A stretch of DNA of 64,000 nucleotides, taken from the sequence record PZ019085.1; one strand, written 5' to 3'. Origin of the DNA: a phage. Shown in pieces: positions 2,233 through 29,735 of the stretch (its first letter is position 1; every line of letters starts with the position of its first letter). The position numbers were made by a program, and so were the translations under genes. The notes below the pieces were generated by a model, which was given only the letters and a program-made list of their open reading frames with translations, did no database searches and was not told where the DNA came from.

Positions 2233-2505
2233 ATGAATAAAGATATTGAAATTGTACGTGAAATTATTACTATTGCTTCTATTTTGATTAAATTCTCTAG
2301 GGAAGATATTGTTGAAGACCGAGCAAGTTTCATCGGATTCTTGAATGAGATTGGAATTAAAAAAGATGGTCGGCAGCTAAATCAGAATTCTTTTAGAAAA
2401 CTAATTACAAATTTAACTGCCGAAGAAAAGAAAACACTGATTAGTGAATTCAATGAAGGTTTTGAAAATATTTATCGTCATTTAGCGATGTATTCTAACA
2501 ACTAA
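2233..2505 (+). CDS. asiA: anti-sigma70 factor AsiA
   Basis: 90 aa; MNKDIEIVREIITIASILIKFSREDIVEDRA... is near-identical to T4 AsiA as recalled. Confidence 0.9.
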   Translation: MNKDIEIVREIITIASILIKFSREDIVEDRASFIGFLNEIGIKKDGRQLNQNSFRKLITNLTAEEKKTLISEFNEGFENIYRHLAMYSNN

Positions 2506-3168
2506 TTATTTAGCCCTTCCTAGTATTCGGATCGCTTGGTTGCATATAGCCGCTAAGCGATCTTCCTCAAGTATATTATTATTCCCCTTATACCAATACA
2601 TCGCCACAGTTCCAGCATAGATGTTATCCAAATTAAAGTATGGACAACTATACATATAAGAAAGTTCGGCAGTCTTAGATTTTGTAGGCAAAAATGCAAA
2701 TTCTGATTTAGATGAGAAATGACGGCCACTTAAATGAATTATATATTCATCGGCCGTTTTATCCACTGGGAATCCGCCAAGGGACTTTTCAGAAATTGTG
2801 CTAGGTAGTTTGCCTTCATAAGCTATAAGGTCGACAAAATAATTTAAGTTTTTAGGTCTGAAAGAATACACAGCACTAAAATCTGCACCAGATGAGATAT
2901 GAACTATTTGCAGTTGTTCTAGAGCCGCAGATTCAAAACGTAAAGCTCGTTCTTTTTGGATTATTTCAGTATAAGTATCATACTTAGCTCTTACATAATA
3001 ATCCAGCAAAATACTTCCTTTGTACCATATTAGTGCCATTAGGAACAAAAGAATAATTACCGCTACTCGGGACATTAAAACCTTTCCAGTAGCGTTATCT
3101 TTGAAAATACGATCTAGCAACCCAAATAGAATATCACTAAGCGAAAATGATACTTTTGGTGTTGCCAT
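2506..3168 (-). CDS. t: holin T (lysis inhibition-sensitive holin)
   Basis: 220 aa; N-terminal TM segment and periplasmic domain closely match T4 holin T (SFSLSDILFGLLDRIFKDNATGKV...ILGRAK). Confidence 0.9.
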   Translation of the reverse strand: MATPKVSFSLSDILFGLLDRIFKDNATGKVLMSRVAVIILLFLMALIWYKGSILLDYYVRAKYDTYTEIIQKERALRFESAALEQLQIVHISSGADFSAVYSFRPKNLNYFVDLIAYEGKLPSTISEKSLGGFPVDKTADEYIIHLSGRHFSSKSEFAFLPTKSKTAELSYMYSCPYFNLDNIYAGTVAMYWYKGNNNILEEDRLAAICNQAIRILGRAK

Positions 3169-3177
3169 AATACCTCC

Positions 3178-3729
3178 TTACTTAAAGATATTTATAATCG
3201 CTTTGACAATAGATTTGTTTTCAAGGTCAGGGAATTTAGGGAATTCACAGCCAAGATGTTCATGTTTTTCTAAAAGGGCAAAGAATTTTTTGAGCTCTTT
3301 AAATTTTCGTTTTTCTTCTCTATTAGCAACCTCTGCGTCAATAAGAGAACTTAAAACACTGAATAATTTATAGAGTTCATGAATTTTCTTATCACGTTGA
3401 ACTACGCGTTTATATGCTTCATCTTCCTTCCACCCGTCGCCGGTCCAAATGTCAAATTCACCAGGTTCTTCTGTAGTAACATTTTGAAGAGCACCTGGGG
3501 TGTCAATAACAATTTTTTGCTTATCATAAGTCCATACTGTTTTTCCACGATGGTCTTCAACATATACCCATTCTTGCTCGCGTTCGTCAAATATAACAGC
3601 ATAGCCTTCTTTAGGGTCTAAAGGTTTTTTTGGTGTTGAATGAGCCGGAAATCCTACGCCTTTTAATGGTTTATAATTTTCTTCTTTGTAAAATTCTTTA
3701 GTGTCAAAATAATAATGATAGAGTTTCAT
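3178..3729 (-). CDS. 38: gp38 long tail fibre assembly chaperone (T4 type)
   Basis: 183 aa; MKLYHYYFDTKEFYKEENYKP... matches T4 gp38; lies downstream of gene 37. Confidence 0.85.
   Translation of the reverse strand: MKLYHYYFDTKEFYKEENYKPLKGVGFPAHSTPKKPLDPKEGYAVIFDEREQEWVYVEDHRGKTVWTYDKQKIVIDTPGALQNVTTEEPGEFDIWTGDGWKEDEAYKRVVQRDKKIHELYKLFSVLSSLIDAEVANREEKRKFKELKKFFALLEKHEHLGCEFPKFPDLENKSIVKAIINIFK
3189..3196 (-). promoter_or_regulatory. late promoter (TATAAATA) for holin t
   Basis: Plus-strand TATTTATA = TATAAATA on minus strand, about 20 nt upstream of the t start, inside the 3' end of gene 38. Confidence 0.55.
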
Positions 3730-22782: not shown

Positions 22783-23916
<1,134 letters not shown>

Positions 23917-23978
23917 TGGTTTACAAACACCAAGGAAGGTGTTACTATGGTTTTTATCAACAACACGAGGAGAAAATT

Positions 23979-24479
23979 ATGAATATGCAATTGATTACTA
24001 ACGATATGGTTGTGGCAGCATTTGGTGATTCTACAGATGGAATCCGGGTCTTTAAGAAAGGACGTGCAGTTGGTTATCTTACTGACCTTCGTACTACTCT
24101 AGCGAAAAATGCTAAAAAGAAGTTAAAGCAAAAAGAATATTCCACCCGATACGCTGAAGAGAAACGCGAAGCGATGCCAGAAGCAGTTAATACCATGGTA
24201 GAATTTCTTCAAAACAATTTGACTAAATATGACGCTAATGTGTTCATTAATATTAGTCAACCAAACGTACATATCGCAGGTATAAAATTCTACATTATTT
24301 GCGACCCTCTTACCGACAAATTCAACCGTCTCGGAATCTCAAGTCCTTATCATACAGCAGAAGAGTTGTGTGTATTGTTTGAATCGTACAAAATCCAGTG
24401 TGATGGTCCGAAAACCGTTCTTATCAATGGATTATCCCGAGATGAAATCATTGAGATTATTAAAACATGCTTAAAGTAA
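23979..24479 (+). CDS. alc: Alc-like host transcription termination/unfolding protein (alternative start 23916)
   Basis: Position between rnlA and spanins as in T4; ATG at 23979 after GAGGAG gives 166 aa (T4 Alc 167). Confidence 0.55.
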   Translation: MNMQLITNDMVVAAFGDSTDGIRVFKKGRAVGYLTDLRTTLAKNAKKKLKQKEYSTRYAEEKREAMPEAVNTMVEFLQNNLTKYDANVFINISQPNVHIAGIKFYIICDPLTDKFNRLGISSPYHTAEELCVLFESYKIQCDGPKTVLINGLSRDEIIEIIKTCLK

Positions 24480-25682: not shown

Positions 25683-26768
<1,086 letters not shown>

Positions 26769-26769
<1 letters not shown>

Positions 26770-26960
26770 TGAAACGATTGTATGAAGTGATTGAGGCCAT
26801 CGAACAGCATAAAGAATATTTGTTTGTAGTATGGCCTTTAGTAAATGGACGGTTCGGTATTGATGTGCTGGACTATGAACATGAAGAATGGTTGGACGGC
26901 GGTATATTTGATAACGTCGACCAGGCAATTGAATGGTTAAATGAAAACTATGTACGATAA
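26769..26960 (+). CDS. hypothetical protein (63 aa)
   Basis: ORF in track. Confidence 0.45.
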
Positions 26961-27165
26961 ACATCATGAAATCGAAGATGAAGCATACAAAATGCTTCGT
27001 AAACTAGTGGGACTTAATATGAGTCCTACATTAATCAACAAACTCGCAGGAATTCGTAATGATCTGAATACTCGTTACAAAGGTGAATATCATGTAGAGT
27101 TTGTTCCTGTAGGTGAACCAACCGAGCGATTTGTTGTTCGAGTTAAAGTAAATACTGTACACTGA
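26941..27165 (+). CDS. hypothetical protein (74 aa; start uncertain)
   Basis: ORF in track, overlaps upstream ORF. Confidence 0.4.
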   Translation: MKTMYDKHHEIEDEAYKMLRKLVGLNMSPTLINKLAGIRNDLNTRYKGEYHVEFVPVGEPTERFVVRVKVNTVH

Positions 27166-27172
27166 GGTAATT

Positions 27173-27448
27173 ATGTTCCCTAAATACTCTGAAATTGTAA
27201 AGGTAGTCTTCAGTCAGATTATCGCAAATCATTTCTTTGATAAGCTGGATACGGCTACTGAGCTTAAGGTCCACTCTGAACTACTCTACGTTTTGAATAC
27301 TCTGGTGCCTGGCCAAGTGGATTCTGTGTCTGTTACATTGTTGCCCAGCTCGGCTCATGCGATTGTTGTGTTTGGACTTGACGCTGATCTAGTAATTCAA
27401 TGTGAAGTTGATTTCGATTCACAAGAAATTAAATGTTTTGCAATTTAA
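27173..27448 (+). CDS. hypothetical protein (91 aa)
   Basis: ORF in track. Confidence 0.45.
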   Translation: MFPKYSEIVKVVFSQIIANHFFDKLDTATELKVHSELLYVLNTLVPGQVDSVSVTLLPSSAHAIVVFGLDADLVIQCEVDFDSQEIKCFAI

Positions 27449-27478
27449 GTTTACAACACAGTAGAGTTGTGATACTAT
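27449..27478 (+). promoter_or_regulatory. early promoter cassette upstream of ORF 27507 and the DAHP synthase gene
   Basis: GTTTAC 27449-27454, 18-bp spacer, TACTAT 27473-27478; perfect 8-bp inverted repeat GTAGAGTT/AACTCTAC flanks the -10. Confidence 0.55.
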
Positions 27479-27506
27479 AACTCTACCAACAAATGAGGAA
27501 ATAGAA

Positions 27507-27743
27507 ATGCTAAGTGAAAACCCAATTACAGTACACGAATTTCAGATTAAAGTAAAAGAATTTGCTCAAGCACTCATTAATAAAGTGTCTGAACGTTTCC
27601 AGGATGCAACATTACGAGTTATTCAAGAATCTCCTCGTTCTTTTCTCATAATCGTTAATCCTAAAGATGGTGACCAAATTACCAATCTTAAATTAGGCAG
27701 TGACGGTCTTGTTGAAGCAACTCGAGTATATGGAACACTATAA
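27507..27743 (+). CDS. hypothetical early protein (78 aa)
   Basis: ORF preceded by early promoter 27449-27478 and SD GAGGAAA. Confidence 0.5.
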   Translation: MLSENPITVHEFQIKVKEFAQALINKVSERFQDATLRVIQESPRSFLIIVNPKDGDQITNLKLGSDGLVEATRVYGTL

Positions 27744-27863
27744 TGAGAGCTATCTCATTACTATAGAGAATGGTCATAAATCTGAGCACTACCAACTTAG
27801 CCTGTCTAATCCGGTTAAAGGTATTGTTGAATCAGAATCTGTTTATATCTCCTAAGGATTGTT

Positions 27864-28856
27864 ATGTTACCTGTCGTCGGAAAACTTATTTCTCCAAAAG
27901 AACTGGCTGAGATTATTCCTTTGTCGGAAGCTTACGCATCACAAGTGGCTTCTCATCGCGAACAAGTTAATTCGATTATGAACGGTGAAGACCCACGCAA
28001 ACTTATTGTTGTAGGTCCTTGTTCAATTCATGACCCTATTGCTGCTGTTGAATACGGCAAACGTCTGGCTGAACTTCAAACTCGTCTTCCTAATGTTCTG
28101 TTAGTGATGCGCGTTTATTTTGAAAAGCCTCGAACTACCGTAGGTTGGAAAGGTCTTGTAAATGATCCATATCTTGACGGAAGTTTTGATATGAACCACG
28201 GTCTTATAGTTGCACGAACATTGTGTCGTAAACTTCTACGTATGGGACTTCCATTAGCAACTGAAGTATTAGACCCATTCACGATTAAGTATCTTTCTGG
28301 TATTTTCTCATGGGTTGCTATTGGCGCCCGTACGACTGAAAGTCAGACACATCGTGAAATTGCTTCAGGTCTACCGATGTGCGTAGGCTTCAAGAACGCA
28401 ACCAATGGTTCTATTAAAGTAGCTACAGACGCGATGTATAGTGCCGCCTGGCCTCATCGGTATATGGGTATGGACGTCGATGGTACTGTAGGCATTGTTG
28501 AAGCTGAAGGTAATCAGAATACGCATATCGTATTGCGTGGTGGGACCAACGGCCCGAACTATCATTCTTCTGATATTCAAGAAGCTTCTAACAAAGCAAG
28601 GGCAGTAGGTCTGAATCATTATGTAATGGTTGACTGTAGCCATGCAAACGCTGATGGGCATTATAGCAATCAAATTGGTATTGGTAAAAATTTAGCAGCT
28701 AATGATTTGGTCAAAGGAATTATGATAGAATCATTCCTACATGAAGGAAATCAAAAAATTTCTGATAATATGTCCTATGGCGTTTCCGTTACCGATGCGT
28801 GCATCAGTTGGGAACAAACTAAAGAGCTGTTAACTTATATTAATAAGGTTCAATAA
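27864..28856 (+). CDS. 3-deoxy-D-arabino-heptulosonate 7-phosphate (DAHP) synthase, class I-alpha (AroF/AroG/AroH family)
   Basis: 330 aa; ordered motifs GPCSIHDP, VMRVYFEKPRTTVGWKGL, IGARTTESQTHRE, VGFKN, HIVLRGG, DCSHAN, IESFLHEGNQ, YGVSVTDACISWE match E. coli DAHP synthases as recalled; SD AAGGA before the ATG. Confidence 0.9.
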   Translation: MLPVVGKLISPKELAEIIPLSEAYASQVASHREQVNSIMNGEDPRKLIVVGPCSIHDPIAAVEYGKRLAELQTRLPNVLLVMRVYFEKPRTTVGWKGLVNDPYLDGSFDMNHGLIVARTLCRKLLRMGLPLATEVLDPFTIKYLSGIFSWVAIGARTTESQTHREIASGLPMCVGFKNATNGSIKVATDAMYSAAWPHRYMGMDVDGTVGIVEAEGNQNTHIVLRGGTNGPNYHSSDIQEASNKARAVGLNHYVMVDCSHANADGHYSNQIGIGKNLAANDLVKGIMIESFLHEGNQKISDNMSYGVSVTDACISWEQTKELLTYINKVQ

Positions 28857-29437
28857 TGAAAGCTAGCACATACCTTCAGATTGCATATCTGATTTCTCAA
28901 GAATCAAAATGTTGTTCATGGAAAGTTGGTGCCGTCATTGAAAAAGATGGACGCATTATCTCTACTGGATATAATGGCTCACCAGCAGGTGGCGTTAACT
29001 GTTGTGAACATGCATCAGAAAATGGTTGGTTGAAGAATAAACCAAGCCCGGTCATAGTTGCTGGACATAAAGAAGGCACTACAGCATTTGGACGGGTGGA
29101 TAATTTTGTTTTGGCTAAAGAACATCGGGCTGCTCATAGTGCATGGTCTGCTAATAATGAAATCCATGCAGAATTGAATGCAATTTTGTTTGCAGCTCGT
29201 AAAGGTAATTCTATTGAAGGTGCTACGTTATATACGACGCTTTCTCCATGTCCTGATTGCACTAAAGCTATTACACAGTCAGGTATTAAAAAGGTTGTAT
29301 ACGCAGAATTATATGACCGATCTCCTGAAAATTGGGCAGACATTCTTAAACAAGCTGGTATTGAAGTAATTCAGTACTCTCGTAATAATCTTCGTTCTCT
29401 GAATTGGGAACAAATTCGAAACTTTTGTGGTGAATAA
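28856..29437 (+). CDS. cd: dCMP deaminase
   Basis: 193 aa; cytidine/dCMP deaminase zinc motifs HAELNAI and SPCPDC. Confidence 0.9.
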   Translation: MKASTYLQIAYLISQESKCCSWKVGAVIEKDGRIISTGYNGSPAGGVNCCEHASENGWLKNKPSPVIVAGHKEGTTAFGRVDNFVLAKEHRAAHSAWSANNEIHAELNAILFAARKGNSIEGATLYTTLSPCPDCTKAITQSGIKKVVYAELYDRSPENWADILKQAGIEVIQYSRNNLRSLNWEQIRNFCGE

Positions 29438-29438
29438 T

Positions 29439-29735
29439 ATGATTTTAACTGAACAAGAAACTATGGTTCTTCGTGAACGTATTAAAACTATTCTGTCTGT
29501 AGGCGTTCATTGTGTTGTATTTGAAAAGGCTAACGGTGATGTTCGTACGATGTTTGCTTCGCGCGATGAACTTGAAGTCAAATACGAAAATAACAATCCA
29601 GCAACAGAAGTTCGTTATGAACCTCGTGAATCAGTTCGAGCATTCGATACCAAGTTAGGTCAGTGGCGTTCTTTCCGCCTTGATAAAGTAATTTCGGTTG
29701 ATGGTACTCCGGTAGAACGTTTGCTTCTTATGTAA
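29439..29735 (+). CDS. hypothetical protein (98 aa; track start 29427)
   Basis: ATG at 29439 directly after the cd stop. Confidence 0.45.
   Translation: MILTEQETMVLRERIKTILSVGVHCVVFEKANGDVRTMFASRDELEVKYENNNPATEVRYEPRESVRAFDTKLGQWRSFRLDKVISVDGTPVERLLLM

What the first reader, a model, noticed from the sequence alone, without database searches (positions are those of the whole stretch)
27864..28856. Intact-looking DAHP synthase (first enzyme of the shikimate/aromatic pathway) carried between pseT and cd
The 330-aa product shows the full ordered motif set of class I-alpha DAHP synthases (GPCSIHDP, VMRVYFEKPRTTVGWKGL, IGARTTESQTHRE, VGFKN, HIVLRGG, DCSHAN, IESFLHEGNQ, YGVSVTDACISWE). These include the positions equivalent to the metal ligands of E. 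coli AroG (Cys61, His268, Glu302, Asp326), so it looks catalytically competent rather than a decayed fragment. Codon usage and the SD look phage-like. In T4 as I recall it, this position holds only small cd.x ORFs, so this is accessory metabolic cargo in an otherwise core region. It sits in a small module (early promoter 27449-27478, ORF 27507-27743, then this gene). The N-terminus is about 8-10 residues shorter than E. coli AroG, a region implicated in feedback inhibition, so the enzyme may be deregulated (inference). DAHP synthase consumes PEP and erythrose-4-phosphate and feeds chorismate, and through it folate, which may connect to the frd/td folate genes in the same cluster (speculative).
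Basis: partly seen in the sequence, partly recalled or inferred. Interest (0 to 1): 0.75.

Follow-up and report, generated by a model that had tools for sequence, protein, structure and literature searches.

The report
Phage DAHP synthase, already known
This is a real, intact copy of the enzyme that opens the aromatic-compound (shikimate) pathway, carried by an RB69-like T4-type phage; it is already annotated in over 200 phage genomes, but every phage copy has a rebuilt feedback-control site and is probably always switched on.

Summary
ORF 27864-28856 (+, 330 aa) is a full-length type I-alpha DAHP synthase: Pfam PF00793 E=5e-75, TIGR00034 aroFGH 428 bits against a 173-bit cutoff, all four metal ligands and the PEP/E4P residues present, and an AlphaFold model with TM 0.93-0.95 to solved DAHP synthases.

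The novelty claim is refuted. The window is a Mosigvirus. The identical protein occurs in dozens of GenBank phages, and homologues occur in 213 phage records, many annotated as DAHP synthase. It is PHROG 5045 (auxiliary metabolic gene). It sits between pseT and cd in at least six T4-like groups. T4 and RB69 are exceptions; RB69 lacks exactly a 1113-bp cassette bounded by a 13-nt direct repeat.

The added value is that the phage proteins form one clade (NJ bootstrap 100/100; at most 55% identical to any listed bacterial enzyme; GC3 0.29, matching the phage). The clade shares:
- a truncated N-terminus that removes the AroG Asp6/Asp7 inhibitor contacts;
- fixed replacements of near-invariant inhibitor-site residues (Q151K, S180P, P150I, D155G, F209Y).

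The rebuilt site is more conserved than the protein average.

Most likely mechanism: an early-expressed, feedback-insensitive enzyme that pushes PEP and E4P into chorismate synthesis. Insensitivity and physiological role are inferred, not shown.

The parts
27449..27478 (+). T4-type early promoter-like site (GTTTAC, spacer, TG-extended TACTAT) upstream of cd.2; likely drives cd.2, the 41-aa ORF, DAHP synthase and cd
   Evidence: Consensus scan hit 27450-27478, 9/12 matches with TG before the -10. Near-identical sequence in T4 (L008 5076-5105), where the T4 record annotates early promoter Pe133295 between cd.3 and cd.2. The number of promoter-like hits in the region is not above chance, so the support is positional homology, not the scan.
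27507..27743 (+). cd.2 homologue (78 aa, DUF7320, phrog_1504), function unknown
   Evidence: Pfam PF24005 E=1.5e-35; phrog_1504 E=1e-37; annotated as RB69 cd.2-like in Shf125875.
27730..27855 (+). 41-aa ORF overlapping the cd.2 end; resembles a second, diverged C-terminal half of cd.2; its stop overlaps the SD of the DAHP synthase gene
   Evidence: phrog_15876 E=1.9e-32 and a weak hit to the cd.2 family phrog_1504, positions 44-76. Alignment with cd.2 proteins. Annotated as a hypothetical CDS in phage Mizar.
27740..27752 (.). Left copy of a 13-nt imperfect direct repeat ATAATGAGAGCTA bounding the cassette
   Evidence: Three-way alignment of both window junctions with the RB69 cd.2/cd junction. 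RB69 lacks exactly the DNA between the repeats.
27854..27858 (+). Shine-Dalgarno AAGGA, 5 nt upstream of the ATG
   Evidence: Read directly from the sequence.
27864..28856 (+). Type I-alpha DAHP synthase (3-deoxy-7-phosphoheptulonate synthase), 330 aa, member of the phage-specific clade
28853..28865 (.). Right copy of the direct repeat ATAATGAAAGCTA; contains the DAHP synthase stop (TAA 28854-28856) overlapping the cd start (ATG 28856-28858) by 1 nt
28856..29437 (+). cd, dCMP deaminase (193 aa), start overlaps the DAHP synthase stop (possible translational coupling)
   Evidence: Pfam dCMP_cyt_deam_1 E=1.6e-26; annotated cd in relatives.

Best explanation
The gene encodes a catalytically competent type I-alpha DAHP synthase, which condenses PEP and erythrose-4-phosphate into DAHP. 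It belongs to a clade confined to T4-like (Straboviridae) phages. The gene was probably captured once, long ago, from an AroF-like (Tyr-type) bacterial enzyme, and has since stayed in the pseT-cd interval of the early nucleotide-metabolism region. It is probably transcribed early from the T4-type promoter upstream of cd.2, and its stop codon overlaps the cd start by 1 nt. The clade has lost the N-terminal segment that supplies inhibitor contacts from the partner subunit. It has also replaced the near-invariant inhibitor-binding residues. It therefore most likely ignores Phe, Tyr and Trp and forces carbon into the shikimate/chorismate pathway, whatever the aromatic amino acid pools and despite the shut-off of host gene expression. 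Shown here: identity, intact active-site residues, fold, clade structure, synteny, composition, and the altered regulatory positions. Inferred: early expression, feedback insensitivity, and the benefit to the phage (aromatic amino acids and/or chorismate-derived cofactors such as folate and quinones).
For: Identity: Pfam and NCBIfam scores lie far above their cutoffs. The best solved relatives are E. coli AroF (E=5e-105), N. meningitidis DAH7PS and AroG. The AF2 model has pLDDT 90.1 and TM 0.93-0.95, rmsd 1.7-1.9 A, to DAHP synthase structures.

Active site: all metal ligands and PEP/E4P residues are conserved. The C/H/E/D ligands are present in 123 of 123 aligned homologues.

Clade: 25 phage-type sequences form one bipartition with 100/100 NJ bootstraps, nearest an AroF-containing set. 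No listed bacterial protein exceeds 55% identity. Gly at the AroG Ser211 position matches E. coli AroF and differs from AroG and AroH.

Long residence in phages: GC3 is 0.29, inside the 0.14-0.38 range of neighbouring phage genes, against 0.50-0.57 for E. coli aroF/G/H. Each homologue tracks the GC of its own phage.

Synteny: the gene lies between pseT and cd in Mosigvirus, Kanagawavirus, Bragavirus, Klebsiella phage EI, Winklervirus, Kagamiyamavirus and a metagenomic T4-like contig.

Regulatory site:
- 6-10 residues precede the AroG Leu17 equivalent, against at least 14 in every bacterial homologue inspected.
- Q151 becomes K in 24/25 phage sequences (Q in 98/98 bacterial).
- S180 becomes P in 25/25 (S in 97/98).
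- P150 becomes I in 24/25 (P in 91/98).
- D155 becomes G in 24/25 (D in 95/98).
- F209 becomes Y in 25/25 (F in 97/98).

Published context: Q151 and S180 bind the inhibitor main chain, and P150L, S180F and others give feedback resistance (PMC9529685). Asp6 and Asp7 are part of the Phe site, and D6/D7 substitutions leave more than 80% activity at 0.5 mM Phe, where the wild type is nearly dead (PMC6520568).

Expression: the promoter is homologous to a T4 early promoter. No + strand terminator-like site lies in 26700-29600. The stop/start overlap with cd is read from the sequence.
Against: No enzyme assay, expression data or infection phenotype exists for any member in the searched literature.

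The rebuilt regulatory pocket is more conserved than the protein average in the phage clade (mean entropy 0.54 against 1.01; only 1% of random site sets are as conserved). That fits a retained function, such as a new effector or an interface role, as well as it fits a locked-on state.

D146, L179 and V221 equivalents are unchanged, so part of the pocket persists.

The promoter scan alone is not above chance.

The gene is dispensable: T4 and RB69 lack it.

Within-Mosigvirus divergence is too low for a meaningful dN/dS (2-6 differences).
Confidence: 0.6

Rival explanations
1. The enzyme is an active DAHP synthase that is still allosterically controlled. Control would be either by an aromatic amino acid bound in a different way, or by a different, phage-relevant ligand through the rebuilt pocket. 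It would then be a re-regulated enzyme rather than a deregulated one.
For: The altered pocket residues (I141, K142, G146, P171, Y200) are almost invariant across a clade that has diverged to about 55% identity. The pocket positions are more conserved than the rest of the protein. A new basic residue (K or R, 25/25) occupies the position that normally binds the inhibitor main chain. D146, L179 and V221 equivalents and the model strands 209-214 and 220-224, placed like AroG's extra hairpin, are retained.
Against: Both residues that hydrogen-bond the amino acid main chain (Q151, S180) are gone, and so is the partner-subunit N-terminal segment with D6 and D7. Single substitutions at these positions already abolish inhibition in AroG (PMC9529685, PMC6520568). 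The conservation could simply reflect the location at the tight-dimer interface.
Confidence: 0.22
2. The protein has been recruited for something other than DAHP synthesis, for example a different aldol condensation (KDO8P-like, feeding LPS or sugar metabolism) or a non-catalytic role such as a decoy or binder of a host factor.
For: PF00793 also contains KDO8P synthases, and one phage genome paper mentions LPS biosynthesis for this domain (PMC8022965). The regulatory site and both termini differ from all bacterial relatives inspected.
Against: The DAHP synthase-specific equivalog TIGR00034 is matched at 428 bits against a 173-bit cutoff, and no KDO8P synthase family appears among the NCBIfam hits. 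The KPRT motif and every PEP, E4P and metal residue are invariant across the phage clade. All top structural matches are DAHP synthases.
Confidence: 0.04
3. The gene is a neutral passenger or recent hitch-hiker with no selected role in infection.
For: It is absent from T4 and RB69, which are fully viable. In Mosigvirus it sits in a 1113-bp cassette flanked by a 13-nt direct repeat and a cd.2-tail remnant, which looks like a mobile insertion. Homing endonuclease genes are neighbours in some phages.
Against: The reading frame is intact and the catalytic residues invariant across at least six T4-like groups diverged to 55-77% identity. Composition is fully ameliorated to each phage. The position is conserved. 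About 140 of about 155 Mosigvirus-level records retain it.
Confidence: 0.05

Closest known systems
E. coli AroF (Tyr-sensitive type I-alpha DAHP synthase; PDB 6AGL/6AGM)
   Same: 51% identity over the full length. Same fold, the same four metal ligands and the same PEP/E4P-binding residues, including the KPRT motif. Gly at the position (AroG S211) where E. coli AroF has Gly and AroG/AroH have Ser. Pro at the AroF P148 position.
   Different: The first 9 residues of AroF (including N8) are absent. AroF P151, Q152, D156, S181 and F210 are replaced by I, K, G, P and Y. There are two internal deletions of 5 and 3 residues and a C-terminus about 9 residues shorter. The AroG and AroH NCBIfam models are matched only below their cutoffs, and no AroF-specific model appears among the hits.
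E. coli AroG and its engineered feedback-resistant variants (P150L, S180F, D146N, D6G-D7A, Q151 variants)
   Same: 48% identity and the same catalytic machinery. The phage protein naturally carries changes at four of the positions exploited for feedback resistance: 150, 151, 180, and loss of 6/7.
   Different: The substitutions are not the same residues (I, K and P rather than L, A and F). They occur together and are fixed across a natural clade. D146 is retained. Resistance is inferred, not measured.
PHROG 5045 / GenBank 'phospho-2-dehydro-3-deoxyheptonate aldolase' of T4-like phages (e.g. Shigella phage Shf125875 YP_009100756.1, Edwardsiella phage PEi20, Klebsiella phage KLB31)
   Same: This is the same gene. 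It is 100% identical at the protein level to Shf125875 and many others, and lies in the same slot between cd.2 and cd. It has been discussed as an amino-acid-related auxiliary metabolic gene (PMC11845039).
   Different: Nothing material. The published mentions found are annotation-level only and do not comment on the regulatory site.

Membership tests
Type I-alpha DAHP synthase (Pfam PF00793 DAHP_synth_1; NCBIfam TIGR00034 aroFGH equivalog) | Full-length match to the family profile above the curated cutoff | tested here: met
   PF00793 252 bits (cutoff 25.5); TIGR00034 427.7 bits (cutoff 173.2); PRK12755 455 bits (cutoff 343).
Type I-alpha DAHP synthase | Four metal ligands equivalent to AroG Cys61, His268, Glu302, Asp326 | tested here: met
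   C53, H260, E289, D311; conserved in all 123 aligned homologues.
Type I-alpha DAHP synthase | PEP and E4P binding residues, including the KPRT motif (AroG R92, K97-T100, G163-R165, K186, R234) | tested here: met
   All ten positions are identical to AroG.
Type I-alpha DAHP synthase | (beta/alpha)8 barrel with the I-alpha-type extra beta-hairpin | tested here: met
   AF2 model pLDDT 90.1, pTM 0.91, with strands 198-203, 209-214 and 220-224. TM 0.93-0.95 to 3TQK, 4HSO, 5CKS, 1QR7 and others. The hairpin assignment rests on the model's secondary structure only.
Type I-alpha DAHP synthase | N-terminal extension that contributes inhibitor contacts (AroG Asp6/Asp7) to the partner subunit | tested here: not met
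   AroG residues 2-9 have no counterpart. 6-10 residues precede the L17 equivalent in all 25 phage-clade proteins, against at least 14 in the bacterial ones inspected. An in-frame stop at 27828 excludes a longer N-terminus.
Type I-alpha DAHP synthase | Inhibitor main-chain binding pair Gln151 / Ser180 | tested here: not met
   K142 and P171. Q is found in 98/98 and S in 97/98 bacterial homologues, against K in 24/25 and P in 25/25 phage-clade proteins.
Type I-alpha DAHP synthase | Catalysis of PEP + E4P to DAHP, and feedback inhibition by an aromatic amino acid | not testable with these tools
   Requires an enzyme assay or complementation; none was found in the searched literature.
Isozyme-specific NCBIfam models AroG (NF006723) and AroH (NF009396) | Score above the isozyme-specific cutoff | tested here: not met
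   AroG model 363 bits against cutoff 568; AroH model 386 bits against cutoff 463. The protein is not an orthologue of either E. coli isozyme.
KDO8P synthase (other branch of PF00793) | Best match to KdsA-type models or structures | tested here: not met
   No KdsA family among the NCBIfam hits at E<=0.001. All 21 PDB sequence hits and the top 50 fold hits are DAHP synthases.
PHROG 5045 (phage phospho-2-dehydro-3-deoxyheptonate aldolase; category moron/AMG/host takeover) | Full-length profile match | tested here: met
   E=3.2e-182, 606 bits, residues 1-330 on profile positions 8-337 of 341.

The most novel reading that the evidence does not exclude
T4-like phages carry a natural, anciently fixed feedback-insensitive (or re-wired) lineage of type I-alpha DAHP synthase. 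The aromatic amino acid sensor has been rebuilt (N-terminal truncation plus Q151K, S180P, P150I, D155G, F209Y) and then held under purifying selection. The phage therefore overrides the host's main control point on aromatic and chorismate flux during infection. I found no description of this regulatory signature in the searchable literature.
Probability: 0.5. Interest if true: 0.45.

Novelty: already known. Interest (0 to 1): 0.27.

Why it matters
As a gene finding it adds nothing. The gene is annotated in hundreds of phage genomes and has its own PHROG family.

Its modest value lies in the regulatory signature. If the phage clade is truly insensitive to Phe, Tyr and Trp, it would be a clean example of a virus disabling a host metabolic feedback loop by carrying a deregulated copy of the gate-keeping enzyme. 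It would also be a natural source of feedback-resistant DAHP synthases of the kind metabolic engineers build by mutagenesis.

It further gives a testable handle on why large lytic coliphages need extra chorismate flux, whether for aromatic amino acids, folate for dTMP and hm-dCMP synthesis, or quinones.

Tried and rejected
Ten literature searches for any biochemical or genetic study of a phage DAHP synthase used various names of the enzyme together with phage, T4-like, RB69, Myoviridae, auxiliary metabolic, feedback and N8K. They found only two annotation-level mentions. One further search was used to find the feedback-resistance literature.

A Biopython NJ bootstrap timed out and was replaced by a numpy implementation.

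dN/dS within Mosigvirus was attempted, but only 2-6 differences exist, so it is uninformative.

Recent capture from the E. coli host was considered and rejected: at most 55% identity to any listed bacterial protein, GC3 0.29 against 0.50-0.57, and a monophyletic phage clade.

A KDO8P synthase reading was considered and rejected: there are no KdsA hits.

The idea that DAHP synthase replaced T4 cd.1 was considered and rejected. Winklervirus X20 and Kagamiyamavirus EcS1 have both, in the order cd.2, DAHP synthase, cd.1, cd.

The 'Acinetobacter phage MD-2021a' aroF hits were set aside because the contig examined carries bacterial-type neighbours.
Full report
**1. Observation**

The ORF reported at 27864-28856 is real: + strand, ATG start, 330 codons.
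- An AAGGA ribosome-binding site lies at 27854-27858, 5 nt upstream of the ATG.
- The nearest in-frame stop upstream is at 27828, with no ATG, GTG or TTG between. The protein cannot be longer at its N-terminus.
- The stop codon (TAA 28854-28856) overlaps the ATG of the next gene by one base.

**2. Identity**

- Pfam DAHP_synth_1 matches at E=5.2e-75.
- The NCBIfam equivalog TIGR00034 (aroFGH) scores 427.7 bits against a cutoff of 173.2. Subfamily PRK12755 scores 455 against 343.
- The isozyme-specific AroG and AroH models are matched only below their cutoffs.
- The best solved relatives are E. coli AroF (E=5e-105), N. meningitidis DAH7PS, Francisella DAHPS and E. coli AroG.

I fetched aroG, aroF and aroH from E. 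coli K-12 MG1655 and aligned them. Identities are 48, 51 and 44%.
- The four metal ligands are conserved: C53, H260, E289, D311.
- All ten PEP/E4P residues checked are conserved, including the KPRT motif.

An AlphaFold2 model built from 36 homologues has mean pLDDT 90.1 and pTM 0.91. It superposes on DAHP synthase crystal structures at TM 0.93-0.95 and rmsd 1.7-1.9 A. The only very low-confidence segment is residues 90-95, which cover the end of the KPRT motif and the residues that follow it.

**3. What the window is, and whether the gene is new**

The window is a Mosigvirus, an RB69-like T4-type coliphage. tblastn against 50,697 phage records finds the protein in 213 records: 101 at 99% identity or more, 39 at 95-99%, 47 at 60-80% and 26 below 60%. 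Proteins 100% identical occur in Shigella phage Shf125875, p000v, phiC120, the O157 typing phages, the LF82 series and others. Their annotations include:
- 'phospho-2-dehydro-3-deoxyheptonate aldolase'
- 'AroG' and 'aroF'
- 'DAHP synthetase'
- '3-deoxy-7-phosphoheptulonate synthase'

PHROGs has a dedicated family, phrog_5045, in the category 'moron, auxiliary metabolic gene and host takeover'. The window protein matches it at E=3e-182.

Two papers mention the gene at annotation level. One is the phiC120 genome paper (PMC8022965). The other is a Klebsiella phage study that calls it an amino-acid-related AMG and hypothesises aromatic amino acid supply (PMC11845039). Ten full-text searches found no biochemical or genetic characterisation. 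The library covers open-access papers only.

**4. Locus and distribution**

In the window the order is:
- pseT (25870-26769)
- cd.4
- an RB69 ORF227c-like gene
- cd.3
- promoter-like site
- cd.2 (27507-27743)
- a 41-aa ORF (27730-27855)
- DAHP synthase
- cd (28856-29437)

This matches Shf125875. The DAHP synthase gene lies between pseT and cd in each of these:
- Kanagawavirus PEi20
- Bragavirus PM2
- Klebsiella phage EI
- Winklervirus X20
- Kagamiyamavirus EcS1
- a metagenomic T4-like contig

X20 and EcS1 carry a clear cd.1 homologue between DAHP synthase and cd. The gene is therefore an extra member of the cd.x series, not a replacement of cd.1.

T4 has cd.5 to cd.1 and no DAHP synthase. RB69 has cd.2 abutting cd.

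Megablast of pseT..cd finds 155 records at 90% identity or more, of which 140 cover at least 80% of the query and so include the gene. RB69 and vB_Eco_mar005P1 cover 69%. The two best-known reference phages are thus the exceptions.

frd, td, nrdA and nrdB lie 5.5-11 kb upstream on the same strand.

**5. Expression signals**

The site at 27449-27478 (GTTTAC, spacer, TG-extended TACTAT) is nearly identical to the T4 sequence between cd.3 and cd.2. The T4 record annotates early promoter Pe133295 in that interval. The generic promoter scan is not enriched over shuffles, so the support is homology, not the scan. No terminator-like site lies on the + strand between 26700 and 29600. Early co-transcription with cd.2 and cd, and translational coupling to cd, are inferred.

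**6. Evolutionary status**

A search of 5.8 billion proteins shows a sharp break. Phage-type proteins are 55-98% identical and 319-343 aa long. Bacterial enzymes follow at 55% identity or less and 341-388 aa.

In an NJ tree of 123 sequences, the 25 phage-type proteins form one bipartition in 100 of 100 bootstraps. They sit nearest a set that contains E. coli AroF and other AroF-annotated enterobacterial enzymes. The outlier P0022 also sits in a T4-like contig next to a pseT-like gene.

GC3 of the gene is 0.29, inside the 0.14-0.38 range of its phage neighbours. E. coli aroF/G/H have GC3 of 0.50-0.57. Each homologue tracks the GC of its own phage; PM2, for example, is 0.325 in a 0.31 locus.

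This points to one old capture followed by long residence in T4-like phages, not a recent pick-up from the host.

**7. The regulatory site**

This is the informative part. Published work gives the background.
- In AroG and AroF the inhibitor main chain is bound by Q151/Q152 and S180/S181.
- M147/P148 contacts the inhibitor.
- D146N, P150L, S180F, L175D, L179A, F209A/S, V221A, M147I and A202T reduce or abolish inhibition (PMC9529685).
- Asp6 and Asp7 belong to the Phe site, and D6/D7 substitutions keep more than 80% activity at 0.5 mM Phe, where the wild type is almost inactive (PMC6520568).

The window protein lacks AroG residues 2-9 altogether. It has I141 for P150, K142 for Q151, G146 for D155, P171 for S180 and Y200 for F209.

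| AroG position | 98 bacterial homologues | 25 phage-clade proteins |
|---|---|---|
| Q151 | Q 98/98 | K 24, R 1 |
| S180 | S 97/98 | P 25 |
| D155 | D 95/98 | G 24 |
| P150 | P 91/98 | I 24 |
| F209 | F 97/98 | Y 25 |

Every phage-clade protein has only 6-10 residues before the AroG Leu17 equivalent. The bacterial ones inspected have at least 14. Position S211 of AroG is Gly in the whole phage clade, as in E. coli AroF and unlike AroG and AroH (Ser). From my own knowledge of the family, not tested here, Gly at this position is associated with Tyr rather than Phe selectivity.

The rebuilt pocket is not drifting. Mean entropy at the pocket positions in 14 de-replicated phage sequences is 0.54, against 1.01 for the whole protein. 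Only 1% of random site sets are as conserved.

The most economical reading is a clade locked into a feedback-insensitive state and held by structural constraint at the dimer interface. A re-wired effector site cannot be excluded.

**8. Mechanism proposed**

- Shown: a complete active site, the correct fold, an early-gene context, long-term retention, and loss of the canonical inhibitor contacts.
- Inferred: the enzyme is made early and condenses PEP and E4P regardless of aromatic amino acid levels. It would therefore raise flux to chorismate at a time when the host can no longer derepress aroF/G/H, because Alc is encoded at 23916-24479.
- Untested: whether the benefit is aromatic amino acids for phage protein, or chorismate-derived folate or quinones.

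**9. Cassette structure (side finding)**

Compared with RB69, the window has exactly 1113 extra bases. They are bounded by the imperfect direct repeat ATAATGA[G/A]AGCTA at 27740-27752 and 28853-28865. RB69 has a single copy at its cd.2/cd junction.

The first part of the extra DNA encodes most of the 41-aa ORF, whose start lies in the cd.2 end. It resembles the C-terminal half of cd.2 and is closer to the PEi20 or Klebsiella-phage type than to the window's own cd.2.

Against Mizar and Shf125875, the DAHP synthase gene is 99.4% and 99.8% identical at nucleotide level. The flanking pseT and cd are 93-96% identical, and cd.3 only 71%.

Together these observations suggest that the cassette moves or sweeps among Mosigviruses by recombination, and that RB69-type genomes can arise by repeat-mediated deletion. 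The direction of the event is not established.

**10. Verdict**

The deregulation hypothesis is strengthened but unproven. Novelty is refuted. Interest is low to moderate. It rests on the clade-wide regulatory signature, which I did not find described and which is directly testable with a simple enzyme assay.

Noticed in passing
window 27740-27752 and 28853-28865; L007 (RB69) about 2175-2187: A 13-nt imperfect direct repeat ATAATGA[G/A]AGCTA bounds a 1113-bp cassette holding the 41-aa ORF and DAHP synthase. RB69 has one copy and lacks exactly the intervening DNA. This is consistent with repeat-mediated deletion or insertion; the direction is unknown.
   Followed up: partly
window 27730-27855 (+): A 41-aa ORF (phrog_15876) overlaps the end of cd.2 and ends in the SD of the DAHP synthase gene. 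It weakly matches the C-terminal half of the cd.2 family (phrog_1504) and looks closer to PEi20 or Klebsiella-phage cd.2 tails than to the window's own cd.2. It may be a scar of lateral import of the cassette from another T4-like phage.
   Followed up: partly
window 25870-29437 vs L009 (Mizar), L001 (Shf125875): Nucleotide identity is very uneven. DAHP synthase is 99.4% identical to Mizar and 99.8% to Shf125875, cd.2 97.9% to both, pseT and cd 93-96%, and cd.3 only 71%. This shows mosaicism, with a divergent cd.3 allele in this phage and an unusually uniform DAHP synthase cassette.
   Followed up: partly
L013 3998-4339 (Serratia phage X20); L014 3983-4318 (Escherichia phage EcS1): Both phages have a T4 cd.1 homologue between DAHP synthase and cd, giving the order cd.2, DAHP synthase, cd.1, cd. 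Mosigviruses with DAHP synthase lack cd.1, and RB69 lacks both.
   Followed up: yes
L015 2399-3562 (Aeromonas phage HJ05); L016 about 2501-3490 (virome contig MT837410): Two distantly related (35-38% identity) virus-associated DAHP synthases keep the C/H/E/D metal ligands. They also lack the Gln151 and Ser180 equivalents (HJ05: His and Pro; MT837410: Gly and Asp). This may be convergent loss of the canonical inhibitor contacts, or simply a different bacterial ancestry.
   Followed up: partly
L017 (CAKLQH020000056.1, 'Acinetobacter phage MD-2021a'): The contig carrying aroF_2 in this 'phage' assembly has cobS and a histidine phosphatase as neighbours and looks bacterial. That aroF_2 hit probably does not represent a phage gene. 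The second contig, with aroF_1 (H97), was not examined.
   Followed up: no
L007 2178-2687 (RB69 cd) vs window 28856-29437: RB69 cd is annotated as 510 nt (169 aa), whereas the window and T4 cd are 582 nt (193 aa). The megablast match to RB69 runs on to locus position 2762, so the RB69 annotation or reading frame may be truncated at the 3' end.
   Followed up: no
L006 2606-3322 (PM2); L012 1481-2075 and 4010-4548 (Klebsiella phage EI); one search hits H125, H126: Homing endonuclease genes (Seg or Mob type) are inserted at various points of the pseT-cd interval in several relatives. The interval is a hotspot for mobile insertions.
   Followed up: no
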